64,000 nt of DNA from an uncultured Bacteroidales bacterium (GCA_903926565.1 CAIYJU010000052.1:18581-82580), one strand, 5' to 3'; shown: positions 6,174-42,216, counted from the first letter of the stretch. Translations and numbers: made by a program. Notes: generated by a model from the letters alone, not told the origin.

Positions 6174-6469
6174 GCCGATATATACAGGAATCTCTCTTAA
6201 CCGTTAATTCACAGATTCTTAACAGGTAACCGGTAAAAACAAGAGACTCTCAGAATACCAATTTTGAGATGCCTGGTAAGGGGATGATTTGTTAGTTCAC
6301 GGGAAAAGAATCAAATGAGTAAGCAAATATAGAATTTTATTTTCTATTTTATTTTAATCTGGACAAAATATTAATAGTTGTCAAATGATTTAAATATTAC
6401 AAAGATCAGATTCCTTATCTTATTTTTGTTCTGGGAACCAAATAAACCAAAAACGTTAAAAAAAAACTT

Positions 6470-7303
6470 ATGAAAAAATTTACATTTTTTGCCATTATGA
6501 TTGCTGCCTTAACACTGGGATTTCAATTAAGCAGCACGGCGCAAACCTTGCTGGAGGAGAACTTCGACTATCCAGCAAATGATCTGATCACTGCGCATGG
6601 CTGGACAGCTCACTCAGGTGCAAATTCTCAGCCAATCACCGTTGTTGCCCCCGGGCTTACATTTCCCGGTTATATTGCTTCCGGCATCGGCAATGCTGCA
6701 CTTGCTGATAATACAGGAGAAGACGATCATAAAACATTCGCGACCCAAACAACAGGGACAATCTATTCCTCAATGATGGTAAAGGTTACAACCACCTCAC
6801 TGGGGTATTTTTTCCATTTTGGCTTAAATCCGAATACAACATCTTTCAGGGGAAAATTATTCATGGATGCCACCAACCATTTTGGTATCAGCTTTACCAA
6901 TAATACCGGCACCTATGCTACTTCAACCTTTACACCCGGAACAACCTACCTCTTGGTAACGAAATATGAAATTGTCCCCGGAACCAATAATGACAAGGTA
7001 AGCCTTTTTGTATTTAACGGAACCATACCACTTTCGGAACCGGCAGCTACAGTAGGTCCCATTACCGAACCCACACAGTTGGACATCAATCCTGGTTCAG
7101 TTGGCATCCGTCAGTATTCAGCCACTCAGAATGTGACAGTTGACGGTATCAGAGTTGCCACAACATGGTCTGCCTTGTTGCCTCCTCCTCCGGCACCCAT
7201 CCCCACCGCATCAGAATGGGGCCTCATCTTTATGTTTGTAGCCCTGCTCAGCATTGGTGCAATCTATATCATGAGGAGAAGAAATTCGGAGTTATCGGTG
7301 TAA
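6470..7303 (+). CDS. secreted protein with an IPTL-CTERM-type C-terminal sorting signal
   Basis: Signal peptide MKKFTFFAIMIAALTLGFQLSSTAQ. The C-terminus is PPPPAP-IPTASEWGLIFMFVALLSIGAIYIMRRRNS: an IPTxSEWG motif, then a TM helix, then an RRR cluster. Confidence 0.65.
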   Translation: MKKFTFFAIMIAALTLGFQLSSTAQTLLEENFDYPANDLITAHGWTAHSGANSQPITVVAPGLTFPGYIASGIGNAALADNTGEDDHKTFATQTTGTIYSSMMVKVTTTSLGYFFHFGLNPNTTSFRGKLFMDATNHFGISFTNNTGTYATSTFTPGTTYLLVTKYEIVPGTNNDKVSLFVFNGTIPLSEPAATVGPITEPTQLDINPGSVGIRQYSATQNVTVDGIRVATTWSALLPPPPAPIPTASEWGLIFMFVALLSIGAIYIMRRRNSELSV

Positions 7304-7325: not shown

Positions 7326-7376
7326 AAGGCGCCAGTACATGAAAATATGTAAAATTATTTTCATGTACTGGCGCCT
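7326..7376. terminator. 21-bp perfect inverted repeat (aaggcgccagtacatgaaaat / attttcatgtactggcgcctt) with a 9-nt loop, just downstream of the IPTL-CTERM gene
   Basis: The palindrome is visible directly in the sequence. Its position after the stop codon at 7303 suits a terminator, although the stem is unusually long. Confidence 0.55.
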
Positions 7377-10957: not shown

Positions 10958-11200
10958 TCAGTGAGCCGGAAACCGCAAGGTTTTCCTTTTCAATAATTTC
11001 CACGCGCCAAAGCCGGCCACCATGGCCAGTGAAACAACCAGCCCACCATCGATGGGAGCGCCGCCACCCGGGGCTTTGTTGCTATTGGTCCCTTTTTCTG
11101 CCGGAGGAGGCGGTGGTGCCTGGGTCATGCCTGTATGGGCAACCAGGATGAAACAGAGCATCAGCAGGGAAAAGATGAGGGGGTTACGTATTTTTTTCAT
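10958..11200 (-). CDS. 80-aa secreted mini-protein made up only of a signal peptide, poly-Pro linker, Gly-rich segment and a sorting-signal-like C-terminus (GGGAPIDGGL, TM helix, KRK)
   Basis: MKKIRNPLIFSLLMLCFILVAHTGMTQA | PPPPPAEKGTNSNKAPGGGAPIDGGLVVSLAMVAGFGAWKLLKRK. Lies 18 bp downstream of a T9SS cargo gene on the same strand. Confidence 0.55.
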   Translation of the reverse strand: MKKIRNPLIFSLLMLCFILVAHTGMTQAPPPPPAEKGTNSNKAPGGGAPIDGGLVVSLAMVAGFGAWKLLKRKTLRFPAH

Positions 11201-12676: not shown

Positions 12677-12919
12677 TTAAGGGTGTGTTGTAATGGCAGC
12701 AACGTTGGAATACTTCGCCTTATAAAGCATCCTTCCGCCATACGCTGCAACTATGGCCAGGAAGAGGGTCAAACTCCCATCGATGGGAGCGCCACCTCCG
12801 CCAACGGGGCCGAGGGTACCGCCATTTGAAGGATCAACAGGTGGAGCTGGCGGTGCCTGGGCTAAAAGTGAAATTCCGCTGATCATCAAAATTGCTGTAA
12901 TTGCTAAAATCTTTTTCAT
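12677..12919 (-). CDS. 80-aa secreted mini-protein, paralogue of 10958..11200 (signal peptide, PPAPP linker, Gly-rich, GGGAPIDGSL, TM helix, basic tail)
   Basis: MKKILAITAILMISGISLLAQA | PPAPPVDPSNGGTLGPVGGGGAPIDGSLTLFLAIVAAYGGRMLYKAKY... The start codon at 12919 was chosen because it gives a canonical signal peptide. Lies 65 bp downstream of the beta-helix T9SS gene. Confidence 0.55.
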   Translation of the reverse strand: MKKILAITAILMISGISLLAQAPPAPPVDPSNGGTLGPVGGGGAPIDGSLTLFLAIVAAYGGRMLYKAKYSNVAAITTHP

Positions 12920-13026: not shown

Positions 13027-16000
13027 CTAATTTATTATAATTCCTTTTACCGTCATCACTTCATTTCCTGTCGTGAGTTTAGCTACAACAAAACCTTTGC
13101 AGTTAATTTGCAGTGTCGAAAGTTTGCTCAGAACGATGGTCTTGCTCAGCAGCTTTTGGCAGGAGGCGTTGTAAACTTCCAACAATCCGGTTTGTCCTGC
13201 AAGGCTGGGTGCATTGATGTAAACCGTATTTCCCGAAATCCATAAATTTCCCGAAAAGCTTGCCGGTTCTTCAATTCCGATTGTCCCACCAAAAACCAGT
13301 TTAAAACGGCTGGCATCATTTCCAGGATTGTGAATGAAGGTATAAACCGGCTGGTTGCGCAGGTTGATGGTTTGGTTGGTGAGTTCGTCTTTGAGGCAGA
13401 TGTTCAATGTCGGGTCGAAGCTTTCCATATTTGCGAAAGATAGATTCACCACACCTGCAAACTGGGTTTCAAAATTCATTGGAACCATTGTGTCATCCGA
13501 CAAATTGCCCAGGGCGTTAATGGTAACTTTGTTTTCGCCGGCCATCGTGTAAATTTGAGGAGCATCGTCAGCGCCATAAAACTTTACAGCGTCTTCGTAA
13601 GGACTGTAATCGTTCGTGTTGGTTTCGCCAAATCCCACAAGCAGTTCATCGGCCATGCCATTGGCGACAGCGTTTACGCGTAACTGCTGAGCTACCAATT
13701 CAGTATTTTTAAGGAACGTGGCACCCGAATGTGTACGTACACCGTTATCCATTATCAAGCTTGGGCTGGTGTTGGTGGTTTGAACAAAAAATGCCTGCCC
13801 AACTGCAATATACCGCGATGCATTAAAAGTTCCACCACTTCCATTCCAAACCCCATAATTACCGTTGTTATAAATCCAAATGGAAGTTCCGATATTGGTT
13901 TTTGTCCAGCCCGATGCAGCGTTCCAGTCAATGTTGGAAGGATAAGGGTTTGGGACGAGGGCAAAGTTGAGGCCATCGGCATGTCCGTGGTAAGTAACCG
14001 AAGGGGTAAACGTGCCGGTATTCGGAGCTCCTGTAAAACTGTAAGTTGTGCTGATGCCTGGGTAGTAAATCATATAACCTACCGTTTCATCGAGTTCAGT
14101 GGCAGAGCTGTTCCCCATGCCCGACCAGATGTTGGAGGTTGGCAAATACTCGTAAAGGTACGAACCCGAAAATAAGCCGGATAACGAATTGTTGCTTGTT
14201 GCCAACGGCACCGAAGCCAGGTGGTATTTGTATGCGTCCAGGTTGCTGCTTCCTTCAACCGTGCGTTGTATGCTTATATTTCCGCTAACACTGCCGTTTG
14301 TCATAAGCGAGCCACCGGATTGTACGGTAAGGCTGGCATCAGCGTTAACGGTAAGGTCAAAGCAATCGGCCGAACCGCCACTCAACACAACAGGCTGGTT
14401 GGCAGCAGTTCCGGGGATGGTTACATTTGCCGATGCATCGGGCACAGTGTTGCTGCTCCAGTTGGTTACCGTATTCCAGTCGTTGCCTGATGTACCTGTC
14501 CAGGTAAAGGTAACAGATGGAATGTATTCAAAAGAGCCAATATCTTTTACTCCGGAGTTGGAATAACCTCTTTGGTCGGTTGCCGGTATTTCAGTACCCG
14601 ACATACCGGCATTGATTGCCGGGCTGCCTGGCAGCAATGCAAAAGTTTTAGTATAACCACCATTATCGGCAAGTGAACCAAGTAAAGGGTCGGTTGCAAT
14701 CTGGCAATTAGTATAACTCCCTATTGCTGCACCTATATCATTGGTATTTTCAAGATTACAATTAGTAAAGTTATAACTGGTAGTGTTATTTGCAAAAAAC
14801 TGCGGTCCACCATCTGTTGCAGTATTTCCATACATTATATCGTTTTTAAAATTAACAGGGTTTGTTGTAGGCTGTCCATTGGTTGAATATGCACCGCCCC
14901 TTCCGGCTGCATTTCCCAAAAAAGTAGAGTTGATAATACCATAATTATTATTAGTTGTAGAAGGAAATACAAGAATAGCACCACCACAATTTCCTGCACT
15001 ATTGTTGCTGAAGGTTGTGTTTGTAATCAACAAATTTTTATCTCCATTAGAATTAACAAAAATGATCGCACCTCCACCCGACTTGTTAGCAATTTGCATT
15101 AAACTTGAAACATGATGATTATCAGAAAAGGTGGAATTCTCAACATCAAGATTACTATGTTGGGTATATAATCCTCCCCCACCTGTATAATCATAATCTC
15201 CAGCAGGAGTTGTTGCATAATTTGATTCAATAGCACAATTTTTGATATGAAGTGTGGTGTTTGCTACAAAAATACCACCTCCGTAATATGTAGATTTCCC
15301 ATTCCGGATAGTTACTTTTTCAAAACTATAAAAGGTATCATCCAAATAGCTCGAATTGCTAAAATTAAATACCCTGCCGGAAGCAGTATTAGGGATAGCA
15401 GCTGCCTGTATGATTGTCAGAGCCGGTCCTTGACCAATTATTGTTAATGATTTGTCTGACACATAAATTTCCGATTCAGTAAAAGTTCCTGCCGATAATA
15501 ACAGAATATCTCTTGATCCGGCAGCACTTGCGGCACTCGTAATAGTAGTGTACATTTGTCCTGCACCAACAGTCAGCACACCAATGAAATCAACTGAAAA
15601 GCTGCTGCTTGAGTTAGCCGTTCCGGCTGCATCTCCATTTGAGAAAGCACTATTATTGAACTGCAAATTAATATTATCGATTTCATCTGTAGTGGAATGC
15701 GATGCGGCATTACCTATCAAAGTGAGGGTTAAGGCAAGACTGTTATTCCTGATCAATGAAGCAGTAAGCCCGGTTGGAACATTGCTTATACTTACTTTCC
15801 CGGTATTTACAAAATTCTCACCATCTGTTCCGCTAAAACTGGTTCCATCAAAATTGTTGTGAACTATAGCGACTGAAGTGCCAATTGAACCATCATTTGA
15901 TAAATTTTCAAGAAATTTGAAGGAACTATAGGCCACTTCAGGCTGTGGCAGATAAACACTTAATGTTAATCCATTCCAGCCAGTTAATGGTGGGCTTCCG

Positions 16001-16257
16001 GCATCCATGCTCATATAATAATCCATAATATTACCCCCAAAATAATCTCCTATCACCCAAAAACTAGAGTTGTAACCAATTGCCCATTGTGTACTCCCAT
16101 CATTATACAAAAACAGGGGTTGCCCATTCATAGTGCCGGTTTCTATGTAAAGACCGTTAAGTGGAGTAAACCATGACCCACTCACCACATAATCTGTAGC
16201 CGAAACTGAAAAGGCCAAGGAAATAACCAGGCAAAAAGTGACGAAAATCTTTTTCAT
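13027..16257 (-). CDS. large secreted right-handed parallel beta-helix (pectin-lyase-fold) adhesin-like protein with a T9SS-type C-terminal domain
   Basis: Signal peptide MKKIFVTFCLVISLAFSVSA. Many N/G/T-rich beta-helix rungs (NSxFxxN, GGGI, AIIFVNSNG...). C-terminal beta-sandwich tail ...LLEVYNASCQKLLSKTIVLS...VKGIIIN. Confidence 0.7.
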   Translation of the reverse strand: MKKIFVTFCLVISLAFSVSATDYVVSGSWFTPLNGLYIETGTMNGQPLFLYNDGSTQWAIGYNSSFWVIGDYFGGNIMDYYMSMDAGSPPLTGWNGLTLSVYLPQPEVAYSSFKFLENLSNDGSIGTSVAIVHNNFDGTSFSGTDGENFVNTGKVSISNVPTGLTASLIRNNSLALTLTLIGNAASHSTTDEIDNINLQFNNSAFSNGDAAGTANSSSSFSVDFIGVLTVGAGQMYTTITSAASAAGSRDILLLSAGTFTESEIYVSDKSLTIIGQGPALTIIQAAAIPNTASGRVFNFSNSSYLDDTFYSFEKVTIRNGKSTYYGGGIFVANTTLHIKNCAIESNYATTPAGDYDYTGGGGLYTQHSNLDVENSTFSDNHHVSSLMQIANKSGGGAIIFVNSNGDKNLLITNTTFSNNSAGNCGGAILVFPSTTNNNYGIINSTFLGNAAGRGGAYSTNGQPTTNPVNFKNDIMYGNTATDGGPQFFANNTTSYNFTNCNLENTNDIGAAIGSYTNCQIATDPLLGSLADNGGYTKTFALLPGSPAINAGMSGTEIPATDQRGYSNSGVKDIGSFEYIPSVTFTWTGTSGNDWNTVTNWSSNTVPDASANVTIPGTAANQPVVLSGGSADCFDLTVNADASLTVQSGGSLMTNGSVSGNISIQRTVEGSSNLDAYKYHLASVPLATSNNSLSGLFSGSYLYEYLPTSNIWSGMGNSSATELDETVGYMIYYPGISTTYSFTGAPNTGTFTPSVTYHGHADGLNFALVPNPYPSNIDWNAASGWTKTNIGTSIWIYNNGNYGVWNGSGGTFNASRYIAVGQAFFVQTTNTSPSLIMDNGVRTHSGATFLKNTELVAQQLRVNAVANGMADELLVGFGETNTNDYSPYEDAVKFYGADDAPQIYTMAGENKVTINALGNLSDDTMVPMNFETQFAGVVNLSFANMESFDPTLNICLKDELTNQTINLRNQPVYTFIHNPGNDASRFKLVFGGTIGIEEPASFSGNLWISGNTVYINAPSLAGQTGLLEVYNASCQKLLSKTIVLSKLSTLQINCKGFVVAKLTTGNEVMTVKGIIIN

Positions 16258-16799
16258 ACCATATTTTTTATAAATTGTTTGTTTGCAAATCATGAGCAGA
16301 AACTATTTTATTCTGACAGTGGCCATTGACTTTTTTGGCGGGATCATTTACGGCCCCGGTTTTTACTGCCATAAAATGATAGTGGAAATGCCATCCGTTA
16401 ATTAACATCAGGCTGTATTTCGCTCCAGGTCTGGCTCAAAGCTGCAGTACCGAAACGGAGCATGGCCAACACTAAAAGCAGGGCCGGCAGAATATTTTTA
16501 AAGTTGAATTTGTTCATGGTTTATTTTTTGATGATACCCGGCAAAGTAAAAGCCAATTAAGCCTTCACGCAAATACTTGTTGTTCCAAAAGTGGCAAAAC
16601 GGCTTGCCGTTTTTGAGAGTTTGCACTATTGGCGGGGGATACAGAGGGTGCTGCGTTTTTGGATTCCCCCAAATAGGGAATAAGCAGAAGTGTGCCAAAG
16701 ATTAAAACCCGAAGAAAGCTGAATAAGAAATGGACCATTCAGGGTATGAATGAAGCAGGGAGAAATCGGATAAATAATGTTTTGGGTGGCCAAGGATCG

Positions 16800-18849: not shown

Positions 18850-20068
18850 TCCTTACTTAGGATTGGGCTATCGGCAACCCTCCAGTAGCCTTTTCTGGTA
18901 TTCGCAGATTCCCAGGCTTTAGGCCGTGGGATACCGAGTTTAATCAGGTTGTGGCGTTTGGATCTGATGCGTTTCCATTGTTTCCAAATCAATGATCTCA
19001 ACCGCCGTCTGAACCATTCGTCAGTTCACTCAAGCAGGATTTTCATGTCGGCAAGCCGGAAGTAATTCAGCCATCCTGTGATGAATTGGCGCAATGCTTC
19101 CTTTCTGCGTTCATTTCCCCAACCGTTGCTGCGACAGGTCAGCTCCCTGATTTTCGCATTCATCTTTTCTACGCTCTTCCGGTGAATGCGGATTTTGCAC
19201 CCATCCTTTGTAAAGTAAAATCCATACCCCAAAAACTTTACGTCTTTGATGTGGGCCACTACCGTCTTGTTTTGATTTACTTTCAGGCACAATGTACCTT
19301 CGATGTATTTCGTGATGCTTGCAAGCACCCTTGCGGCTGCCCATTCGCTTCGGCAAAATATCATACAATCGTCGGCGTACCTCACGAACCGGTGGGTTTG
19401 CAAATACAAACGCAGTGCTTCCGTATCCATCCCGTCTATCCCTCCACTCCCATTATTCCGCTTCACTTGTTTGTAAGCTGAATTTAGATTGGCAGGTGAC
19501 AGAATGTACTCAAATAGCTCTGCTCCTCCTGTCGTTATGTTGGTGTCTCCTTTTTCGGTCATCCATAGGAATGTCTGCCCTTCTGCGTAGCTTTCGAGTG
19601 CCGCTCTATCATTCTGCAAACAGGTGTCTTTATCCGTTTTCTGCTCTCTGCCATTCATACGGTAACGATCATTTGATGCTCACCTCTTAAGATTTGACCC
19701 TTCCAATATCAACCCATGGTATCGTACTATGGTCGCTGCTGACTCCTGTTGGCAATTGTTAGCCGTGTTTCTTACTCCGTTTCCACACGTCCAACAGGTC
19801 TCCCGTGGTAAACTTATTCCCTTTCATCCCAGGTAACCGCTGCATTTACACCCCAACATCCGGGTAGTTTTTGGACTTCGATTTGTCTTGCAATCTCATC
19901 CTGCCGGGTATGCCTGATGCAATTCGTGTTCCTCGGTACGGGACTTTGCCTCCTGCTTCCTTCAGATTCCGCTTCACAACGGACACCCTTGCTCCTGGCT
20001 AATGGTTGGTAACTACCGACCTCCATAAAGGACTTGCACCTTCAAGGTTATAAGTGTGCACGGCACAC
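18850..20068 (-). mobile_element. decayed group II intron (class C-like placement) inserted immediately downstream of the tRNA-Met terminator; the 3-prime boundary is approximate
   Basis: On the minus strand the terminator hairpin and U-run are followed directly by GTGTGCCGTGCAC (a GUGYG 5-prime intron consensus). An intron-encoded RT/maturase ORF lies within the element. Confidence 0.55.
19026..19658 (-). CDS. group II intron reverse transcriptase/maturase, internally deleted (RT domains 2-4 missing), probably non-functional
   Basis: ELFEYILSPANLNSAYKQVKRNNGSGGIDGMD (RT0/1) is joined directly to RFVRYADDCMIFCRS (the RT5 YADD box). The maturase X-domain motif QFITGWLNYFR is present. Total length is 210 aa against roughly 400+ aa for an intact protein. 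Confidence 0.65.
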   Translation of the reverse strand: MNGREQKTDKDTCLQNDRAALESYAEGQTFLWMTEKGDTNITTGGAELFEYILSPANLNSAYKQVKRNNGSGGIDGMDTEALRLYLQTHRFVRYADDCMIFCRSEWAAARVLASITKYIEGTLCLKVNQNKTVVAHIKDVKFLGYGFYFTKDGCKIRIHRKSVEKMNAKIRELTCRSNGWGNERRKEALRQFITGWLNYFRLADMKILLE

Positions 20069-29159: not shown

Positions 29160-30494
29160 ATGATTGTGAAAAATATAAAAAAAATCCATATTGAAACGTA
29201 CGGCTGCCAGATGAACATATCTGACAGTGAGATTGTTGCATCGATTCTGACAAGTAACGGATATACCTACACCGAAGATGTGTTGTCGGCAGATATTATT
29301 TTTGTAAATACCTGTTCCATCCGCGAAAATGCGGAGGACAGGGTCAGAAAAAGACTGCAATACTTCAAATCTCTGCGAAAAAAAAGGCCGGAATTGCTGA
29401 TCGGCCTGCTGGGATGTATGGCCGACCGGACAAAGACAGCCCTGATGGAAGAGGAGCAGCTTCTTGACCTGGTGGCGGGGCCCGATTCATACCGGCATCT
29501 CCCACAGTTACTCGAACAGGTAGGCACTGGCAGGAAAGCGATTGACACCATTCTGTCTGTTGATGAGACGTATGCCGACATCACACCCGTCAGGCTCGAT
29601 TCAAACGGTGTTTCTGCCTTCATCTCCATCATGCGTGGTTGCGAAAACTATTGCTCCTACTGCGTTGTTCCGTCCACCCGCGGACAGGAACGCAGCAGGG
29701 GTGCCGCTTCCATTGTGCGTGAAACCCGCGACCTTTTTGACAAAGGGTACAGGGAAGTAACCCTGCTTGGACAGAACGTAAACTCCTACAGCTGGAAAAC
29801 AGGTGACGAGGTAATAACCTTTGCAACACTGCTCGGGCGGGTTGCCGCAGTAAACCCATTGATGCGCATCCGGTTTGCGACATCCCATCCAAAAGACATA
29901 TCCGACGAACTCCTTCATACCATTTCAGGTACGCCGAATTTATGCAAGGCCATTCACCTACCGGTCCAGTCGGGAAGCAATCACATGCTCGACCTGATGA
30001 ACCGGAAATACACCCGGGAGGATTACATGGAACGGATCAGTGCCATCAGGAAAATCATCCCGGGTTGTGCAATAACAACGGATATAATTGCAGGGTTCTG
30101 CGACGAAACTGAGGCAGATCACCAGGATACACTCTCGCTGATGCAGTGGGTTGGCTACGACAGCGCCTTCATGTTCAAATATTCTGAACGACCTCAGACA
30201 CTGGCGGCAGATACCATGACCGACAATGTTCCGGAAGAGATTAAAGATCGCAGGCTCAGGGAAATCATTGACCTTCAGCAGCAACTTTCGCTGGCAAATA
30301 ACAAAACTGAGGTCGGGAGGATTTATGAAATATTGGTTGAAGGAAAATCCAAACGATCAGACAACCAGTATTTTGGACGAAATTCCCAAAATAAGGTCGC
30401 AGTTTTCACAAAAACGGAAACCGGGCCGGGGGAATATGTCACAGTAAAAATAACGGGCGCCACTTCTGCGACATTACTGGGGGAAGTTGTTTGA
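29160..30494 (+). CDS. miaB: tRNA-i6A37 methylthiotransferase
   Basis: IHIETYGCQMNISDSE (MTTase N-terminal cysteines), radical-SAM CxxxCxxC (CENYCSYC), and a TRAM domain. Confidence 0.88.
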   Translation: MIVKNIKKIHIETYGCQMNISDSEIVASILTSNGYTYTEDVLSADIIFVNTCSIRENAEDRVRKRLQYFKSLRKKRPELLIGLLGCMADRTKTALMEEEQLLDLVAGPDSYRHLPQLLEQVGTGRKAIDTILSVDETYADITPVRLDSNGVSAFISIMRGCENYCSYCVVPSTRGQERSRGAASIVRETRDLFDKGYREVTLLGQNVNSYSWKTGDEVITFATLLGRVAAVNPLMRIRFATSHPKDISDELLHTISGTPNLCKAIHLPVQSGSNHMLDLMNRKYTREDYMERISAIRKIIPGCAITTDIIAGFCDETEADHQDTLSLMQWVGYDSAFMFKYSERPQTLAADTMTDNVPEEIKDRRLREIIDLQQQLSLANNKTEVGRIYEILVEGKSKRSDNQYFGRNSQNKVAVFTKTETGPGEYVTVKITGATSATLLGEVV

Positions 30495-30531
30495 AAAATT
30501 AGTACTTTTGCCCTTTCAACTCCATGCCACT

Positions 30532-31332
30532 ATGAAACAAACATTTACGCTGGTCTCAAAATTTGCGCTTGTCTTTCTTCTATTTGCAATTTTGCTGGCT
30601 TCCTGCGTACCTCAGAAAAAGATAAAATATCTTCAAAAACAACAGGAAAAGGATACAACTAGTTTTGTCGCCAACACCCGCAGTGCCGACTACAAATTGC
30701 AGGTCAAAGACAACCTCTATGTCAGGGTGTTCGCTTTCGATGAAAAGGCATACCTGTTCTTCAACAAGCAATCCGGTTCAAGTTCATACAACGATTTTGC
30801 CAACGACGCTTCCATCTATCTCAACAGCTACAGTGTCAATTCCGATGGCAACATCGATTTTCCGATCATCGGGAAAGTTTATGTGCAGGGTTTAACTGTA
30901 GGCCAGGTCAAGACGCTGCTTCAGCAGATGATCGGTGAATACCTTAAAGAGACCACAGTGGTTGTAAAAACCGTCAACTTCAGGATCACGATGGTTGGTG
31001 AAGTGATGCGCCCCGGCGAATTTACCGTTTATAAAGATGACCTTAATCTTTTTGAAGCGATCGCCACTGCAGGAGATCTGACAGAATTTGCAAACCGTAA
31101 CCGGGTGGCCCTGATCCGCCAGGTAAATGGCGGATCACAGGTACATTACCTTGATCTCACGAGCCAGGATCTTCTGAGTTCGCCATATTACTACCTGCAG
31201 CCGAACGACATCATCTATGTTTCACCCCTTGGTTACAAGCGATGGGGTTTGGGATCTACCTTCCCATGGGCAATCGTGCTTGCCTCGCTTACCACAACCC
31301 TTTTGTTGATCAATTACGTTAAAACATTTTAA
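30532..31332 (+). CDS. Wza-like polysaccharide export protein (Poly_export plus SLBB)
   Basis: Signal peptide/lipoprotein N-terminus, the PGEF motif (VMRPGEFTV), and a soluble-ligand-binding beta-grasp segment. Confidence 0.7.
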   Translation: MKQTFTLVSKFALVFLLFAILLASCVPQKKIKYLQKQQEKDTTSFVANTRSADYKLQVKDNLYVRVFAFDEKAYLFFNKQSGSSSYNDFANDASIYLNSYSVNSDGNIDFPIIGKVYVQGLTVGQVKTLLQQMIGEYLKETTVVVKTVNFRITMVGEVMRPGEFTVYKDDLNLFEAIATAGDLTEFANRNRVALIRQVNGGSQVHYLDLTSQDLLSSPYYYLQPNDIIYVSPLGYKRWGLGSTFPWAIVLASLTTTLLLINYVKTF

Positions 31333-31337
31333 TTCCC

Positions 31338-33824
31338 GTGAACGAGAATATACAGGATTTAACACAGCAGCAACAGCAACAATCTGTTGACTACAAAATC
31401 ATCCTTTTCAAATTTTATCGCTTCTGGTATTTCTTTGCCATCACTATCTTTCTTGCACTCATCATCGCATTTATCTTCAACAAATACACCAAAGAGGTTT
31501 TTGAAGTAACCACAACTGTGCTCGTTAAGGATAAATCAGAAAACAAAATAAATCCCCAGGATCTGCTCGGCATGGGACTCTTCAATAACATGCAGAACCT
31601 GCAGAATGAGATCGGGATATTGTCCTCCTACACGCTTACCTATCGTGCAGTGACCAAAATCGGGTTCGAGGTTTCGTACTTTACGGAAGAGAATTTTGTT
31701 ACAAAAGAGCTTTATCTCGACAGTCCTTTCAAAGTAATCATGGATACAACGGTTCCCCAACCGGTAAACATGTTCTTTAAACTCAAGATTCTTTCGAAGG
31801 AGAAATTCAAACTGGAAACAAATGACGAGGCGATCAAATTCTTTGACTTTTCATCCCGGAAAATGGTTGAGGATCGTAAAGACAACATCGTGGTTGATCA
31901 GACCTTTTCATTCGGACAGCCGATTCAGTCAAAGCACTTCAAATTCAGGGTCATCCTTAAAGAAAAATTTGACGTGACACAGGATATCAGCAAATCCTTT
32001 TCATTTATTTTCAAGAATTATGACGCCCTCGTAACAGAGTTCAAGACATTCAACATCGAACCGATCAACAAGGAGGCATCTATCGTTGAGATAAAACTCA
32101 AAGGCGGCAATGTTGATAAACTGGTCGTATTTTTAAACACCCTCACCAAGGAGTACCTTGCCAAAGGGCTGGAAAAGAAAAACATTGTCGCATCACGCAC
32201 CATCACATTTATCGACAACGAGTTAAGAGGAATAACTGATTCCCTGAATGCCTCTGAAAAAGCCCTCATGCTTTTCAGGACCAACAAGGAGATCATGAAC
32301 CTCAACGATGAAGCCAAGCAGGTTTTCGAAAAAATGATGCAGCTTCAGGATGAGAAAGCAATTCTGATGGTTAAATCGAAATACCTTCAGAACATGAAGG
32401 AGTATATCGAAAAAAATCAGAAATTCGATGAGCTGATTGTTCCTGCATCGATGGGGATTGAAAACACGGTGCTGAACGATCTGACCATGCAGCTGACCAA
32501 CCTCTACATGAAGCGGACGGAGACCTCCCAATATTCCAAGTCGAAGAATCCCAGTCTCATGGCCATTGATTTACAGATTGCAACAACTAAAAACGCGTTG
32601 TATGAAAATGTAAAAAGTGCCATCAATTCCAATGACATTGCCCTGAAAGAGGTCAACGACAGGGTCTCCGTGATCAACTCACGCATCAGCAATCTGCCTG
32701 AAACACAGCGTGTTCTGTTTGGCATAGAACGCAAATTCAAGCTTACCGATGCCATCTACACCTACCTTTTGCAAAAACGTTCGGAGGCACAAATATCACA
32801 GGCTTCGAACCTTTCCGACAACGAGGTATTGGATGAAGCATCCTCCATCGGGCTGAAACCGGTTTTTCCGAAGAAAACGCTGAATTATGTGATCGCACTG
32901 ATACTCGGGGTCCTGATTCCGATCCTGTATATCTTTGGAAGAGATTATTTCAATGACAAGGTGATGGAGCGGGAAGACGTTGAAAAACTGACAAAACTTC
33001 CGATCGTCGGGCACATCATTCACAGTGATAAACCAAGTACGGTGGTGGTTCTTGACTCGCCGAAATCGTCCATCGCCGAGTCGTTCAGATCGGTAAGAAC
33101 CAACATTAACTACCTGCTCCAGGGAAAGGAGAAGCAAACAGTGCTGATTACAGCCGACATGGTCAATGCCGGTAAAACGTATGTTTCGATCAACCTTGCC
33201 CTCATTTTCGCCATGTATGGCAAAAAGACACTGCTCATGGGTTTTGACCTGCGGAAACCCAAAATCTTTGAAGATTTCGGATTGACAAATAAAGAGGGTA
33301 TCAGCTCCTATATCATCGGCAAAAGCAAGCTGGAAGACATCATTCAATTTTCGACCATCGAAAATCTTGACATCATCATGTCGGGCCCTGTCCCGCCAAA
33401 TCCTGCAGAATTAATTGCCTCGGCAAAGTGTTCTGAGATGTTTGCCCTTTTGAAAGAAAAATATGATTACATCATTATTGACACACCCCCTGTTGGTCTG
33501 GTGACAGATGCGTTTCTTCTTATGAAACATGCGGATGCCAACCTATTCCTGGTGCGTCAGGGCTACACCCACAAAAAAATATTCGGATCAATTATCCACG
33601 ACATGGCGCAACGCAACATCTCCAATCTGGCCATTCTGATCAACGACGTTAAACTTAACCGCAGCTCTTACGGATACGGATATGGCTATGGATATGGATA
33701 CGGGTATGGCTACGGATACGGGTCGGGTTATGGTTATGGTTATGGTTATGGTTATTATTCAGATGATAAAGAGGCGTCTAATAAAAGCAAATCATTTCTT
33801 CAGCGTGTTTTTGGAAAATCTTAG
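31338..33824 (+). CDS. Wzc-like chain-length determinant with a bacterial tyrosine (BY) kinase
   Basis: Two TM segments flank a periplasmic coiled-coil. Walker A motif GKTYVSINLA. The C-terminal tyrosine cluster appears as a (GY)n repeat. Confidence 0.8.
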   Translation: MNENIQDLTQQQQQQSVDYKIILFKFYRFWYFFAITIFLALIIAFIFNKYTKEVFEVTTTVLVKDKSENKINPQDLLGMGLFNNMQNLQNEIGILSSYTLTYRAVTKIGFEVSYFTEENFVTKELYLDSPFKVIMDTTVPQPVNMFFKLKILSKEKFKLETNDEAIKFFDFSSRKMVEDRKDNIVVDQTFSFGQPIQSKHFKFRVILKEKFDVTQDISKSFSFIFKNYDALVTEFKTFNIEPINKEASIVEIKLKGGNVDKLVVFLNTLTKEYLAKGLEKKNIVASRTITFIDNELRGITDSLNASEKALMLFRTNKEIMNLNDEAKQVFEKMMQLQDEKAILMVKSKYLQNMKEYIEKNQKFDELIVPASMGIENTVLNDLTMQLTNLYMKRTETSQYSKSKNPSLMAIDLQIATTKNALYENVKSAINSNDIALKEVNDRVSVINSRISNLPETQRVLFGIERKFKLTDAIYTYLLQKRSEAQISQASNLSDNEVLDEASSIGLKPVFPKKTLNYVIALILGVLIPILYIFGRDYFNDKVMEREDVEKLTKLPIVGHIIHSDKPSTVVVLDSPKSSIAESFRSVRTNINYLLQGKEKQTVLITADMVNAGKTYVSINLALIFAMYGKKTLLMGFDLRKPKIFEDFGLTNKEGISSYIIGKSKLEDIIQFSTIENLDIIMSGPVPPNPAELIASAKCSEMFALLKEKYDYIIIDTPPVGLVTDAFLLMKHADANLFLVRQGYTHKKIFGSIIHDMAQRNISNLAILINDVKLNRSSYGYGYGYGYGYGYGYGYGSGYGYGYGYGYYSDDKEASNKSKSFLQRVFGKS

Positions 33825-33838
33825 GAGGTAAAAGGGCA

Positions 33839-34744
33839 ATGGGTAACTATCATTTGACTCACCTGAAAGAGCTGGAGTCGGAAGCAATTTATGTATTGAG
33901 AGAGGTGGCTGCTCAATTCGAACGCCCGGTTTTACTCTTCTCCGGCGGTAAAGACTCCATCGTGCTTGTTCACCTCTCCCGCAAGGCCTTTTTCCCGGCA
34001 AAGATCCCATTTCCTTTACTGCACATTGATACCGGTCACAATTTCATTGAAACCCTGGAATTCAGGGATCGGATGGCTAATTCGGTAAATGCAAGGCTGC
34101 TGGTGGGTTCTGTACAGGAATCGATTGACAAAGGAAGGGCTGTAGAAGAAACAGGTGTCAATGCCAGCCGGAATGTGCTGCAAACCGTTACCCTGCTTGA
34201 TGCCATCGAAGCACACAAATTCGATGCGGCCATCGGGGGTGCGCGCCGCGATGAAGAGAAGGCCCGGGCCAAAGAGCGGTTCTTTTCCCATCGTGATGAA
34301 TTCGGACAATGGGACCCAAAGAACCAGCGGCCGGAACTCTGGTACATGTTCAACGGAAAAAAAAGGATGGGGGAACATTTCAGGGTTTTCCCGATCAGCA
34401 ACTGGACAGAGATGGATGTGTGGCAATATATCCTGGCAGAAAATATCGACCTGCCCAGCATCTATTTCACCCATGAACGCGACGTTTTTTACCGCGATGG
34501 CGTTTGGCTCGCAGCAGCTCCGTTCATGGAGATGAAACCAAATGAAAAGATTGAGTACCGCAGGGTTCGCTGCCGCACTGTAGGAGATATCTCGTGCACA
34601 GGGCTGACTTTGTCATCCGCTGATACTGTTGAAGATATTATTCAGGAGATCGCAGCCACCCGTGTTACCGAACGAGGTGGCCGTTACGACGATAAACGGT
34701 CTGAAGCCGCAATGGAAGACCGAAAAAAAGAGGGCTATTTTTAA
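33839..34744 (+). CDS. cysD: sulfate adenylyltransferase subunit 2
   Basis: LESEAIYVLREVAAQFERPVLLFSGGKDSIVLVHL PAPS-reductase-like fold; 301 aa. Confidence 0.9.
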   Translation: MGNYHLTHLKELESEAIYVLREVAAQFERPVLLFSGGKDSIVLVHLSRKAFFPAKIPFPLLHIDTGHNFIETLEFRDRMANSVNARLLVGSVQESIDKGRAVEETGVNASRNVLQTVTLLDAIEAHKFDAAIGGARRDEEKARAKERFFSHRDEFGQWDPKNQRPELWYMFNGKKRMGEHFRVFPISNWTEMDVWQYILAENIDLPSIYFTHERDVFYRDGVWLAAAPFMEMKPNEKIEYRRVRCRTVGDISCTGLTLSSADTVEDIIQEIAATRVTERGGRYDDKRSEAAMEDRKKEGYF

Positions 34745-36024
34745 TGGAACGAACATTTTCTTCTAAAGCATATCTCGACATGGAACTGCTGCGTTTTACC
34801 ACCGCAGGAAGTGTTGATGATGGAAAGAGCACCCTGATAGGAAGGCTGTTATACGACAGCAAATCGATTTTCGAGGACCAGCTCGATGCAGTCAGACGGG
34901 CAAGTGTTCAAAAAGGCAGCGAGCATATCAACCTTGCCCTGTTTACCGACGGGCTCAGGGCTGAACGGGAACAAGGCATCACCATTGATGTTGCTTACCG
35001 CTATTTTGCCACCCCGAATCGCAAGTTTATCATTGCCGATACCCCCGGACACATTCAGTATACCCGGAACATGGTTACCGGCGCATCCACTGCCAACGCA
35101 GCCATTGTACTCATCGATGCGAGAAACGGCGTGATCGAACAAACCCACCGCCATACGTTTATTGCCGCACTTCTTGGCATTCCCCATATCATCGTTTGTA
35201 TCAACAAAATGGACCTGATGGATTACCGGGAAGAGGTTTACACCGCCATCAGGAATGAATACCAGGCTTTTGCCAGCCAGGTTTTTCCCGGCCAGGATAT
35301 CCGTTTTATTCCGATCAGCGCCCTGAAAGGTGACAATGTGGTAAAACCATCTGAAAACATGCCATGGTATGATGATGGCACCCTTCTGTACCACCTTGAA
35401 ACCATCCCCATCAGCCAGGACCATGACCTGAAAAATCAGCGGTTTCCTGTACAATACGTCATCAGGCCTGAATCAGAAGAGTTCCACGACTACCGCGGTT
35501 ACGCCGGAAGGGTTGCCGGGGGCTTTTTTCATCCGGGAGATAAAATTGTGGTTCTCCCTTCCGGAATTGAAAGTGAAATTACTGCCATCGATACCCTGTC
35601 GGGTCCCCTTGCTGAAGCTCACCCGCCAATGTCGGTAACGATTACCCTGAAGGACGACGTTGACTTAAGCCGGGGCGGAATGATCGCCGGGGTCGGAAAT
35701 ATCCCGCAGGAGAGTTGTGACATAACCACTATGATTTGCTGGATGAACCCGAAACCCCTGCAAATCCAGGGGAAATATGCCCTCAAACATACGACCAAAG
35801 ATGTTCGCTGCATTATCCAGGATGTCGATTATGTATTAAATATCAGCACGTTGGAAAAAGTGCTTGAAAACAAAACAATCCGTATGAATGACATTGCCCT
35901 CATCCGGTTGCGCACCACCAAACCTTTGTTTTTTGATCCTTACACCACAAACCGCATCACCGGAAGTTTAATCCTTATCGATGAAACGACCAACGAAACC
36001 GTTGCTGCCGGCATGATCGTATGA
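34744..36024 (+). CDS. cysN: sulfate adenylyltransferase subunit 1 (GTPase)
   Basis: LRFTTAGSVDDGKSTLIGRLL G1 motif, DTPGH, NKMD; 426 aa. Confidence 0.9.
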   Translation: MERTFSSKAYLDMELLRFTTAGSVDDGKSTLIGRLLYDSKSIFEDQLDAVRRASVQKGSEHINLALFTDGLRAEREQGITIDVAYRYFATPNRKFIIADTPGHIQYTRNMVTGASTANAAIVLIDARNGVIEQTHRHTFIAALLGIPHIIVCINKMDLMDYREEVYTAIRNEYQAFASQVFPGQDIRFIPISALKGDNVVKPSENMPWYDDGTLLYHLETIPISQDHDLKNQRFPVQYVIRPESEEFHDYRGYAGRVAGGFFHPGDKIVVLPSGIESEITAIDTLSGPLAEAHPPMSVTITLKDDVDLSRGGMIAGVGNIPQESCDITTMICWMNPKPLQIQGKYALKHTTKDVRCIIQDVDYVLNISTLEKVLENKTIRMNDIALIRLRTTKPLFFDPYTTNRITGSLILIDETTNETVAAGMIV

Positions 36025-36088
36025 AAACCACATGGTTTTCTACAATAAATCCTGAAAAAAACAGTTATCTTTCTTCAAGATAAATCCC

Positions 36089-41886: not shown

Positions 41887-42216
41887 ATGAGAAAAGCGGA
41901 GGTCTATAACAATGGGGTACTCGCGGGCTTTCTCATCGAAGAAGGCCGGAATCATTATATATTCCGGTATGAGGATGCTTATTTTAACGACCCGGGTAAA
42001 CCGGCAATAAGTTTAACACTTCCAAAATTTCAACAGGAATACGACAGTGAGTTTTTGTTTCCATACTTCAGCAACATGGTAGCAGAAGGAATCAATTTAG
42101 CAATACAAAGCAGGTACCTGAAAATAGATGAGAGAGATTTGTTAAGCTTACTGGGAGCAACAGCAACAAGCGACACTATCGGTGCAGTAACGGTAAAATT
42201 GATTGTAAGGAAATGA
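41887..42216 (+). CDS. HipA N-terminal-subdomain-like small protein (HipS-like)
   Basis: MRKAEVYNNGVLAGFLIEEGRNHYIFRYEDAYF...AISLTLP matches the HipA_N (Couple_hipA) pattern. 109 aa. The start is adjacent to the hipB stop, and the gene overlaps the next gene by 4 bp. Confidence 0.65.
   Translation: MRKAEVYNNGVLAGFLIEEGRNHYIFRYEDAYFNDPGKPAISLTLPKFQQEYDSEFLFPYFSNMVAEGINLAIQSRYLKIDERDLLSLLGATATSDTIGAVTVKLIVRK

What the first reader, a model, noticed from the sequence alone, without database searches (positions are those of the whole stretch)
6470..7303. IPTL-CTERM-type sorting signal on a secreted protein in a T9SS-rich Bacteroidota locus
The 277-aa protein ends with PPPPAP-IPTASEWGLIFMFVALLSIGAIYIMRRRNS. 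This matches the IPTLxxWG, TM helix, Arg-cluster architecture of the IPTL-CTERM sorting domain and resembles no T9SS CTD. The window therefore carries three proteins that use non-T9SS C-terminal sorting tags (this one plus the two mini-proteins 4-6 kb away) alongside at least eight T9SS cargos. No sorting enzyme is encoded in the window.
Basis: partly seen in the sequence, partly recalled or inferred. Interest (0 to 1): 0.55.

Follow-up and report, generated by a model that had tools for sequence, protein, structure and literature searches.

The report
IPTL-CTERM exosortase-H cargo in Bacteroidales
A small secreted lectin-fold protein in a Bacteroidales genome ends in a real IPTL-CTERM sorting tag, the kind cut by the membrane enzyme exosortase H, which is encoded outside this window; databases already annotate this system in such bacteria, so it is a correct but fairly ordinary find.

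Summary
The ORF at 6470..7303 (+) is real. It encodes 277 aa ending ...PPPPAP-IPTASEWG-LIFMFVALLSIGAIYIM-RRR-NSELSV.

The tail matches IPTL-CTERM over the full model but falls just under the curated cutoffs (TIGR04174 19.3 vs 20.5 bits; PF18203 18.9 vs 20.8). The likely cause is Ala in place of the canonical Leu. Orthologues with IPT[LVM]SEWG pass (24.5 and 25.7 bits), and NCBI already names one [quoted passage not shown].

The tail is as constrained as the folded domain (dN/dS 0.11 vs 0.12).

The window holds no exosortase. However, exosortase H plus its partner membrane protein lie directly beside IPTL-tailed genes in Prolixibacteraceae, Draconibacterium, Chitinophagales and Saprospiraceae. 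They also occur in the same MAG (GCA_049317265.1) that carries the 67%-identical, syntenic orthologue.

The passenger is a ConA-like lectin jelly-roll from a large family with no Pfam or NCBIfam model. Most relatives end in a T9SS CTD, and a few carry a dockerin-like tail (one tested scores at the Dockerin_1 cutoff).

This is a sub-threshold new member of a known kind. The only mild interest is the natural anchor swap. XrtH in the window's own genome could not be checked.

The parts
6421..6428 (+). TATTTTTG, a match to the Bacteroidota -7 promoter consensus TAnnTTTG, 42 nt upstream of the ATG (candidate promoter only)
   Evidence: pattern search; 64 matches in the window against 45 expected by chance, so this is weak on its own. 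That this consensus marks Bacteroidota promoters is from my own knowledge.
6470..7303 (+). Complete gene for the 277-aa IPTL-CTERM-tailed secreted protein (the end coordinate includes the stop codon)
6470..6541 (+). N-terminal Sec signal peptide (residues 1-24, MKKFTFFAIMIAALTLGFQLSSTA). There is no Cys, so it is not a lipoprotein. The likely signal peptidase I cut is after STA, leaving an N-terminal Gln.
   Evidence: Sequence; AF2 models residues 2-21 as a separate helix. The cleavage site is inferred; no signal-peptide predictor was available.
6542..7177 (+). Passenger domain (residues 25-236): a ConA-like lectin/glucanase beta-sandwich. It belongs to a large family with no Pfam or NCBIfam model.
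   Evidence: AF2 pLDDT 91.5, pTM 0.82. Foldseek against PDB hits calreticulin lectin domains, legume lectins and ERGIC-53, at E about 1e-6, TM about 0.5 and about 10% identity. No Pfam or NCBIfam hit. 2005 representatives of 50%-identity clusters.
7178..7198 (+). Pro-rich linker LLPPPPA (residues 237-243)
   Evidence: Sequence; variable in length among orthologues
7199..7222 (+). Signature motif IPTASEWG (residues 244-251). This is the IPTLxxWG motif with Ala at position 4.
   Evidence: Position 4 in 128 genomic occurrences: L 90, V 23, M 10, A 3, I 2.
7223..7273 (+). Transmembrane helix LIFMFVALLSIGAIYIM (residues 252-268)
   Evidence: Sequence; AF2 helix 247-273
7274..7300 (+). Basic cluster RRR (residues 269-271) and short cytoplasmic tail NSELSV (residues 272-277)
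   Evidence: Sequence; RR is invariant in orthologues
7328..7375 (+). 20-bp-stem hairpin followed by a TTTGTATT tail, 25 nt after the stop: a terminator-like site that suggests a monocistronic gene

Best explanation
The gene encodes a Sec-exported, roughly 210-residue ConA-like (lectin-fold) protein. Its last 34 residues form an IPTL-CTERM tripartite sorting signal: the motif IPTASEWG, a membrane-spanning helix, and an RRR cluster.

The most likely mechanism runs as follows:
1. The signal peptide is removed after export.
2. The C-terminal helix holds the protein in the inner membrane, with RRR on the cytoplasmic side and the motif at the periplasmic face.
3. Exosortase H (XrtH) recognises the IPT..WG motif. 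XrtH is a roughly 195-aa polytopic membrane enzyme with conserved Cys, Arg and His, encoded elsewhere in the genome next to a roughly 200-aa partner membrane protein.
4. XrtH removes the helix and releases or transfers the lectin-like domain towards the cell envelope or surface. This happens without the T9SS.

Shown here: the ORF and its architecture; the near-threshold family match; motif conservation and purifying selection on the tail; adjacency of xrtH to IPTL-tailed genes in Bacteroidota; and co-occurrence of xrtH with the orthologue in one MAG.

Inferred only: cleavage itself, the acceptor, the final location, carbohydrate binding, and the presence of xrtH in the window's own genome.
For: - Family match. 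TIGR04174 aligns over 1-27 of 27 positions at 19.3 bits, E 0.001. PF18203 scores 18.9 bits. The motif region of midcut-by-XrtH scores 24 bits.
- Orthologues. Twelve orthologue tails (62-97% identical proteins) keep P, T, W, L, I and RR invariant. P0005 and P0010 pass TIGR04174 at 24.5 and 25.7 bits. NCBI names P0005 an IPTL-CTERM protein.
- Tail conservation. The P0002 tail is identical to the window's tail over the last 37 aa, although the proteins are 79% identical overall. In the comparison of the window with the L014 orthologue, dN/dS is 0.11 for the tail, 0.12 for the passenger and 0.64 for the signal peptide.
- Motif position. In 128 motif occurrences across species-representative genomes, the motif sits a median of 31 aa from the stop. 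Ala at position 4 recurs three times: once in the L014 orthologue itself and twice in unrelated Saprospiraceae proteins (L043, L104).
- xrtH adjacency. Clustering multi-TM ORFs in those loci gave XrtH (TIGR04177: L057 245 bits, L019 117, L112 95.7, P0264 95.9, L032 88.9, L130 85.1; cutoff 86) and a partner membrane protein (weak match to NF041730) directly beside IPTL-tailed genes. Bacteroidota examples are L032 Prolixibacteraceae, L112 Draconibacterium, L109, L037 Chitinophagales, and L045 and L036 Saprospiraceae.
- Catalytic residues. The Cys/Arg/His positions (GCD, LNxxRI, MHV) are invariant in five Bacteroidota XrtH sequences.
- Distribution. 494 homologues were found, many named 'exosortase H (IPTLxxWG-CTERM-specific)' or 'exosortase H [Bacteroidota]'.
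- Co-occurrence. XrtH P0272 lies on contig JBMOIP010000004.1 of GCA_049317265.1. This is the same MAG whose contig JBMOIP010000006.1 carries the syntenic 67% orthologue P0005. XrtH P0264 and orthologue P0004 come from the same assembly, ERZ27245625.
Against: - The window protein itself misses both curated cutoffs, by 1.2 bits (TIGR04174) and 1.9 bits (PF18203).
- No xrtH lies in the 64-kb window. The rest of this genome could not be searched. Two attempts to find an XrtH in a sample carrying the window protein failed.
- Same-MAG co-occurrence rests on binning.
- xrtH is not adjacent to this gene family in any locus examined.
- Some Bacteroidales XrtH sequences score at or just under the XrtH cutoff, with XrtX as second-best match. 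The enzyme subtype is therefore at the edge of the family.
- No exosortase H substrate has been shown biochemically to be cleaved. The only experimental paper found that mentions IPTL-CTERM is on an S-layer protein of Methylomirabilis lanthanidiphila (PMC8671808).
Confidence: 0.8

Rival explanations
1. The C-terminus is only an ordinary membrane anchor. The protein stays tethered to the inner membrane facing the periplasm and is never processed by a sorting enzyme. The resemblance to IPTL-CTERM would then be coincidental or vestigial, for example if this lineage lost xrtH.
For: The protein scores below the curated cutoffs. The canonical Leu is replaced by Ala. No exosortase is in the window.
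Against: The residues outside the helix (P, T, W, G/S) are conserved across orthologues and across phyla. Tail dN/dS is 0.11, equal to that of the folded domain. Three diverged orthologues (P0001-P0003) keep IPTASEWG intact. Ala also occurs at position 4 in unrelated Saprospiraceae IPTL tails. The related MAG has xrtH.
Confidence: 0.08
2. The tail is a sorting signal, but it is processed by a different enzyme than XrtH. Candidates are another Bacteroidota exosortase (XrtF- or XrtX-like), possibly the one that also serves the two PID-CTERM-like mini-proteins nearby.
For: Bacteroidales XrtH homologues sit at the XrtH cutoff, with XrtX as second-best match at 79-82 bits. The window also carries PID-CTERM-like mini-proteins, which implies at least one further sorting system in this genome.
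Against: XrtH is the best-scoring model for every enzyme found next to IPTL-tailed genes. XrtX scores lie far below its cutoff of 170. The PID-type motif differs from the IPT..WG motif. Gene adjacency links IPTL tails specifically to this enzyme clade in seven Bacteroidota loci.
Confidence: 0.08
3. The protein is a T9SS cargo with a cryptic or degenerate C-terminal domain.
For: Most homologues of the passenger domain carry a T9SS CTD: 75 of the 120 listed have PF18962. The locus is rich in T9SS cargos and encodes PorZ.
Against: No match to any T9SS CTD model, even at E <= 10. Only 41 residues follow the passenger domain. They are modelled as a single helix, not the roughly 70-100-aa beta-sandwich of a CTD.
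Confidence: 0.02

Closest known systems
IPTL-CTERM sorting domain (TIGR04174 / PF18203) with exosortase H, XrtH (TIGR04177)
   Same: Both have the same tripartite tail at the extreme C-terminus of a signal-peptide protein, with an IPTxxxWG motif, a TM helix and an Arg cluster. The alignment covers the full model. Orthologues pass the cutoff. XrtH and its partner protein sit next to IPTL-tailed genes in related Bacteroidota.
   Different: Ala replaces the canonical Leu, so the score is 1.2 bits under the cutoff. A six-residue extension (NSELSV) follows the Arg cluster. The Bacteroidales XrtH clade scores at the edge of the XrtH model (85-96 bits vs cutoff 86, against 245 bits for a Burkholderiaceae XrtH).
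Methylomirabilis lanthanidiphila S-layer protein mela_00855 (PMC8671808)
   Same: [quoted passage not shown] It is the only experimentally localised IPTL-CTERM protein found in the literature search.
   Different: It comes from a different phylum. No sequence relationship of the passenger was tested. Nothing suggests the window protein forms an S-layer.
PEP-CTERM/XrtA and PGF-CTERM/ArtA systems (PMC1569441 for PEP-CTERM; ArtA from my own knowledge)
   Same: They follow the same logic: a short C-terminal motif, a TM helix and a basic cluster, recognised by a polytopic Cys/Arg/His exosortase- or archaeosortase-family enzyme.
   Different: The signature motif and the enzyme subfamily differ. No PEP-CTERM or PGF-CTERM model matched. 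XrtH is a minimal enzyme of about 195 aa.
NCBIfam 'choice-of-anchor' domains
   Same: The passenger domain recurs with alternative C-terminal anchors. Among the 120 listed relatives, 75 have a T9SS CTD, 14 have IPTL-CTERM and about 10 have a dockerin-like tail.
   Different: No existing choice-of-anchor model, nor any Pfam or NCBIfam model, matches this passenger. The IPTL-tailed clade is narrow: it collapses into one 50%-identity cluster, and none of 137 other representatives has a C-terminal TM tail.
T9SS C-terminal domain cargos (TIGR04183 / PF18962)
   Same: Both are found in the same phylum and the same locus, and paralogues carry the same passenger family. Both are Sec-exported proteins with a C-terminal targeting element.
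   Different: The tail here is a 34-residue motif plus helix, not a folded beta-sandwich CTD. There is no model match.

Membership tests
IPTL-CTERM (TIGR04174 / PF18203) | Score at or above the curated HMM cutoff (an operational criterion) | tested here: inconclusive
   TIGR04174 scores 19.3 bits against a cutoff of 20.5 (E 0.001, model positions 1-27 of 27). PF18203 scores 18.9 against 20.8. The cutoff is formally missed by 1.2-1.9 bits. Among orthologues, P0005 scores 24.5 and P0010 25.7 (both pass), while P0004 scores 19.1 (misses).
IPTL-CTERM (TIGR04174 / PF18203) | Signature motif IPTLxxWG immediately before the helix | tested here: met
   The motif is IPTASEWG, matching 5 of the 6 specified positions with L replaced by A. 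Position 4 is naturally variable (L 90, V 23, M 10, A 3, I 2 in 128 occurrences). P, T and W are invariant in orthologues.
IPTL-CTERM (TIGR04174 / PF18203) | TM helix followed by a basic cluster at the extreme C-terminus, on a protein with an N-terminal signal peptide | tested here: met
   The helix is LIFMFVALLSIGAIYIM, followed by RRR, and the motif lies 34 aa from the stop. AF2 models a helix at 247-273 and an N-terminal helix at 2-21. The signal peptide was judged by inspection only.
IPTL-CTERM (TIGR04174 / PF18203) | Cognate exosortase H encoded in the same genome | not testable with these tools
   Only 64 kb of this genome is available, and it holds no XrtH. The feature is met in the MAG of the syntenic orthologue (GCA_049317265.1) and at assembly level for P0004 and P0264.
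midcut-by-XrtH (NF033207) | Full-length match above cutoff, with the motif in the middle of the protein | tested here: not met
   The score is 24 bits against a cutoff of 45. Only profile positions 32-64 of 175 (the motif and helix) align, and the motif here is C-terminal.
T9SS type A/B/C C-terminal sorting domain | Match to TIGR04183, PF18962 or related CTD models | tested here: not met
   No hit at E <= 10 in NCBIfam or Pfam.
Other exosortase/sortase-type tails (PEP-CTERM, PID-CTERM, LPXTG, GlyGly-CTERM and others) | Match to the respective NCBIfam model | tested here: not met
   The only other hit is LPXTG_anchor at 9.4 bits, E 1.7.
Concanavalin A-like lectin/glucanase fold (passenger) | Beta-sandwich jelly-roll superimposable on known lectin domains | tested here: met
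   AF2 pLDDT is 91.5. Foldseek against PDB hits calreticulin, legume lectins, ERGIC-53 and alginate lyase at E 1e-6 to 1e-5 and TM 0.4-0.56. This is fold-level only; no ligand-binding residues were checked.
Exosortase H (TIGR04177), for the Bacteroidales enzymes proposed as the processing partner | Score above cutoff 86, conserved Cys/Arg/His, adjacency to IPTL-tailed genes | tested here: met
   Scores are P0264 95.9, L112 95.7, L032 88.9 and L130 85.1 (just under the cutoff). C, R and H are invariant. Adjacency is seen in L032, L112, L109, L037, L045 and L130.

The most novel reading that the evidence does not exclude
Bacteroidales run a second surface-sorting route alongside the T9SS. It uses a minimal XrtH-clade exosortase with a catalytically dead-looking partner membrane protein. 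In one recent clade, a lectin-fold passenger that ancestrally carried a T9SS CTD was re-tagged with IPTL-CTERM, while other relatives carry a dockerin.

This natural anchor swap in a diderm with a well-understood alternative pathway would make the still-unknown destination and acceptor of exosortase substrates directly testable. One could follow the same passenger with three different tails.
Probability: 0.3. Interest if true: 0.5.

Novelty: new member of a known kind. Interest (0 to 1): 0.3.

Why it matters
The finding shows that a curated-cutoff miss (Leu to Ala in the motif) hides a genuine exosortase-H cargo. It also documents that T9SS-rich Bacteroidales carry the XrtH/IPTL-CTERM system.

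About a quarter of the IPTxSEWGLI hits in species-representative genomes were Bacteroidota (30 of 119 stretches, from the titles).

The literature search found almost nothing on this system: one paper mentions IPTL-CTERM and none mentions XrtH. NCBI and JGI pipelines already annotate both parts, so this is not new biology.

The practical value is modest. It gives an annotation fix for this gene and its P0001-P0004 relatives. It also offers a handy comparative set, the same lectin-like passenger with T9SS, IPTL or dockerin tails, for anyone wanting to test where exosortase substrates end up in diderm bacteria.

Tried and rejected
- Neighbourhood look-ups. I looked for xrtH next to the gene or its orthologues and next to IPTL mini-proteins in nine contexts (the ERZ1426853 contig of the window gene, the P0005 and P0004 loci L001-L005, and L006-L010). 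No PF09721 gene lay within 10 kb, and unannotated neighbours gave no exosortase hit.
- Plasmid search. A tblastn of the tail consensus against plasmids found no match.
- Literature. The searches gave one IPTL-CTERM paper and nothing for XrtH or PID-CTERM. The Haft 2012 paper is not held.
- Short profile. The 37-aa tail profile was too short for the protein search. The 47-aa profile returned mainly short fragments.
- Linking an XrtH to the window's own organism. The listing of cluster members gave no accessions. It showed only that the exact window protein is held by NCBI and ENA, with a longest contig of 116 kb. Two XrtH candidates with 'NCBI, ENA' sources, P0267 and P0381, turned out to come from other samples.
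- Rejected readings. A T9SS CTD is ruled out because no model hit was found. Membership of midcut-by-XrtH is ruled out because only the motif region aligns.
- Circularity caveat. The local tail HMM score of 50 bits is partly circular. The training tails were selected with a pattern that the window tail satisfies, and they include two orthologues. It is not used as independent evidence.

Full report
**Observation.** The ORF at 6470..7303 (+) is present exactly as described. It starts at ATG and encodes 277 aa. The N-terminus (MKKFTFFAIMIAALTLGFQLSSTA|Q) looks like a signal peptidase I signal peptide and has no lipobox Cys (inspection). A TAnnTTTG match lies at 6421-6428. A 20-bp-stem hairpin with a T-rich tail lies at 7328-7375. 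Together they suggest a monocistronic gene.

**Family tests.** NCBIfam gives TIGR04174 IPTL_CTERM at 19.3 bits (E 0.001) over model positions 1-27 of 27, against a curated cutoff of 20.5. It also gives 24 bits to the motif and helix segment (positions 32-64 of 175) of the midcut-by-XrtH model. Pfam PF18203 scores 18.9 bits against 20.8. Nothing else matches: no T9SS CTD and no PEP-CTERM or PID-CTERM.

**Why it misses, and whether the motif is real.**
- The closest homologues are 62-97% identical, 262-304 aa long, and come from metagenomes and Bacteroidales MAGs. All end in the same tail: IPT[A/M/V/L]SEWG or VPTLSQWG, then a helix, then RRRNS or RRNG. In an alignment of 12 tails, P, T, W, L, I and RR are invariant.
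- Orthologues with Val or Leu at position 4 pass TIGR04174 (P0005 24.5 bits, P0010 25.7 bits). P0004, with Met, scores 19.1 like the window protein. NCBI already names P0005 'IPTL-CTERM sorting domain-containing protein [Bacteroidales bacterium]'.
Among 128 translated occurrences, position 4 is L 90, V 23, M 10, A 3 and I 2. The motif lies a median of 31 residues (mostly 27-38) from the stop. Ala is therefore a rare but recurrent variant; two of its three occurrences are in unrelated Saprospiraceae proteins and the third is the L014 orthologue.
- The tail is under purifying selection. Against the 75%-identical orthologue in the LacPavin Bacteroidetes MAG (L014), dN/dS is 0.11 for residues 237-277, 0.12 for the passenger and 0.64 for the signal peptide (counts are small, with 13 synonymous and 6 non-synonymous differences in the tail).
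- P0002 is 79% identical overall but identical over the last 37 residues.

**The sorting enzyme.**
- No exosortase, archaeosortase or rhombosortase model matches any sizeable ORF in the window. The multi-TM proteins that lacked NCBIfam hits are an acyltransferase-3 and an LPG-synthase-TM-like protein.
- None of nine neighbourhoods of orthologues or IPTL mini-proteins held an exosortase.
- I clustered all multi-TM ORFs in the 119 genome stretches. Two recurrent families of about 200 aa emerged beside the IPTL-tailed genes.
- The first family is exosortase H. TIGR04177 scores are 245 bits for a Burkholderiaceae member (L057), 117 for Zixibacteria (L019), 95.7 for Draconibacterium (L112), 88.9 for Prolixibacteraceae (L032), and 70-81 for Saprospiraceae, 'Bacteroidetes' and Phycisphaeraceae members. 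The cutoff is 86.
- The second family weakly matches NF041730, 'exosortase H-associated membrane protein' (L032 23.6 bits vs cutoff 35). It lacks the conserved Cys and His.
- In L032 the gene order is a 574-aa Fn3-repeat protein ending ...NIPTLSEWGLIILGLVLLGAGTLYITRWHS, then xrtH (1927-2565), then the partner (2471-3181). L112 has xrtH, the partner, and a convergent IPTL-tailed gene.
- Sixteen of the 119 stretches contain xrtH within the same 8-kb piece. Seven of these are Bacteroidota.
- Five Bacteroidota XrtH sequences share invariant GCD, LNxxRI and H positions. These correspond to the Cys/Arg/His triad of the exosortase/archaeosortase family; that correspondence is from established knowledge.
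- A profile search found 494 homologues. Many are named 'exosortase H (IPTLxxWG-CTERM-specific)' by JGI, or 'exosortase H [Bacteroidota]' and 'archaeosortase/exosortase family protein [Bacteroidales]' by NCBI.

**Link to this gene family.**
- XrtH P0272 is encoded on contig JBMOIP010000004.1 (168 kb) of MAG GCA_049317265.1. It is followed by the partner protein and a convergent 282-aa protein with a different passenger ending ...AIPTLSQWGLIILGCVLLGFGTFYILKMRG, which scores 25.1 bits on TIGR04174.
- The same MAG's contig JBMOIP010000006.1 (136 kb) carries P0005, the 67%-identical orthologue of the window protein. Its neighbours match the window's: an 823-aa T9SS protein and an OMP beta-barrel.
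- XrtH P0264 and orthologue P0004 both occur in assembly ERZ27245625, on 99-kb and 81-kb contigs.
- For the window's own organism the link could not be made. The exact protein is held by NCBI and ENA, with a longest contig of 116 kb. Two candidate XrtH proteins came from other samples.

**The passenger.**
- AlphaFold2 with 46 homologues gives pLDDT 91.5 and pTM 0.82. Residues 26-230 form a beta-sandwich and residues 247-273 form a single helix.
- Foldseek against the PDB returns calreticulin lectin domains, legume lectins, ERGIC-53, an alginate lyase and sialidase lectin-like domains, at E about 1e-6, TM 0.4-0.56 and about 10% identity. This is the ConA-like lectin/glucanase fold. Carbohydrate binding is an inference from the fold only.
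- The domain has no Pfam or NCBIfam model but is common. It has 2005 representatives of 50%-identity clusters at E <= 1e-3, and is often N-terminal in proteins of up to 4127 aa.
- Among the 120 listed relatives, 75 carry PF18962, the T9SS CTD. Fourteen carry the IPTL tail. About ten end in a D/N-rich repeat; of the two tested, P0071 scores at the Dockerin_1 cutoff (23.1 vs 22.9 bits) and P0098 gave no hit.
- None of 137 further representatives has a C-terminal TM tail. The IPTL-tailed clade is therefore narrow and looks like a recent replacement of a T9SS CTD.

**Mechanism.** By analogy with the exosortase/archaeosortase paradigm (PEP-CTERM/XrtA in PMC1569441; PGF-CTERM/ArtA from my own knowledge), the most likely path has four steps:
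1. Sec export and signal-peptide removal.
2. Retention in the inner membrane by the C-terminal helix, with RRR on the cytoplasmic side.
3. Recognition of IPT..WG by XrtH.
4. Removal of the helix, with release or transfer to an unknown acceptor.

Only the sequence features and the genomic associations are shown here. Cleavage, the acceptor and the final location are inferred. The one experimentally localised IPTL-CTERM protein I could find is the S-layer protein of Methylomirabilis lanthanidiphila (PMC8671808).

**Rivals.**
- A plain membrane anchor or a decayed signal is disfavoured by motif conservation and by dN/dS.
- Processing by a different exosortase cannot be fully excluded. The Bacteroidales enzymes sit at the XrtH cutoff with XrtX as second-best match, and the genome evidently has another tail type, the PID-like mini-proteins. 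However, adjacency consistently pairs IPTL tails with this enzyme clade.
- A cryptic T9SS CTD is excluded by the length and fold of the tail and by the absence of any model hit.

**Side claims.**
- The mini-proteins at 10958..11200 (-) and 12677..12919 (-) have a signal peptide, a Pro-rich stretch, GGGAPIDG[G/S], a TM helix and a basic tail. They score only 14.7 and 18.8 bits on PID-CTERM against a cutoff of 26.
- T9SS cargos are five above cutoff, one marginal, and PorZ, rather than 'at least eight'.

**Verdict.** The protein is a sub-threshold but genuine IPTL-CTERM/XrtH-type cargo, so it counts as a new member of a known kind whose components public pipelines already annotate in Bacteroidota. 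Interest is modest at 0.3. It rests mainly on the natural T9SS-CTD / IPTL-CTERM / dockerin anchor swap on one lectin-like passenger, and on the near-absence of literature on this system.

Noticed in passing
window 10958..11200 (-) and 12677..12919 (-): Two 80-aa mini-proteins share one layout: signal peptide, Pro-rich stretch, GGGAPIDG[G/S], a TM helix and a basic tail, with the motif 32-36 aa from the stop. They match PID-CTERM (NF046080) only weakly (14.7 and 18.8 bits vs cutoff 26). No cognate enzyme is in the window and no literature on PID-CTERM was found.
   Followed up: partly
window 6542..7177 (+) and homologues P0019-P0120, P0383-P0519: The passenger is a ConA-like lectin-fold domain with no Pfam or NCBIfam model, yet it has about 2000 representatives of 50%-identity clusters. 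It behaves like a 'choice-of-anchor' domain: 75 of 120 relatives have a T9SS CTD, 14 of 120 have IPTL-CTERM, and about 10 of 120 have a dockerin-like tail (P0071 scores at the Dockerin_1 cutoff; P0098 gave no hit).
   Followed up: partly
L036 5280-7450, L037 ~1900-2300, L083 5460-7700, L094, L109: Saprospiraceae, Chitinophagales and 'Bacteroidetes' MAGs encode proteins in which IPTMSEWGLI plus a helix is followed by about 75 more residues containing two further hydrophobic segments. This is a midcut-type layout. Several lie directly upstream of xrtH, some as tandem duplicates.
   Followed up: no
L130 6575..7177, L112 571..1266, L032 2471..3181 and others (alignment A5): The roughly 200-aa membrane protein always downstream of xrtH overlaps its stop. 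It gives faint hits to XrtH itself (17-22 bits) but lacks the Cys and His. It may be a degenerate exosortase paralogue acting as a partner.
   Followed up: partly
L130 2618..5790 and L132 3505..5820: In two Bacteroidales contigs the xrtH cassette is preceded by a response regulator and histidine kinase pair and by small secreted proteins of 83-119 aa. Further upstream is a large Fib_succ_major or choice-of-anchor-L surface protein. This hints at regulated expression.
   Followed up: no
window 19026..19658 (-): A 210-aa ORF matches only the C-terminal part of group II intron reverse transcriptase/maturase (TIGR04416, 117.7 bits vs cutoff 300, profile positions 206-332). It is probably a truncated intron remnant.
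   Followed up: no
window 41887..43244 (+): Two adjacent ORFs carry the HipA N-terminal domain (109 aa) and the HipA C-terminal kinase domain (343 aa). This is a split or two-gene HipA-like toxin module.
   Followed up: no
window 13027..16293 (-): A 1088-aa surface-type protein has a choice-of-anchor Q domain (71.7 bits) but no detectable C-terminal sorting domain in NCBIfam or Pfam, although its C-terminal sequence resembles T9SS cargo ends.
   Followed up: partly
window 7328..7375 (+): A perfect 20-bp-stem hairpin (GGCGCCAGTACATGAAAATA...TATTTTCATGTACTGGCGCC) lies 25 nt after the stop codon. It is unusually long for a simple terminator.
   Followed up: no
window 30487..38458 (+): A Wza-like polysaccharide exporter, a Wzc-like tyrosine autokinase, CysD and CysN, and then PorZ lie in one co-directional block. 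Their weak similarity to XrtA-associated EPS genes comes from shared domains and is not evidence of an exosortase system.
   Followed up: no
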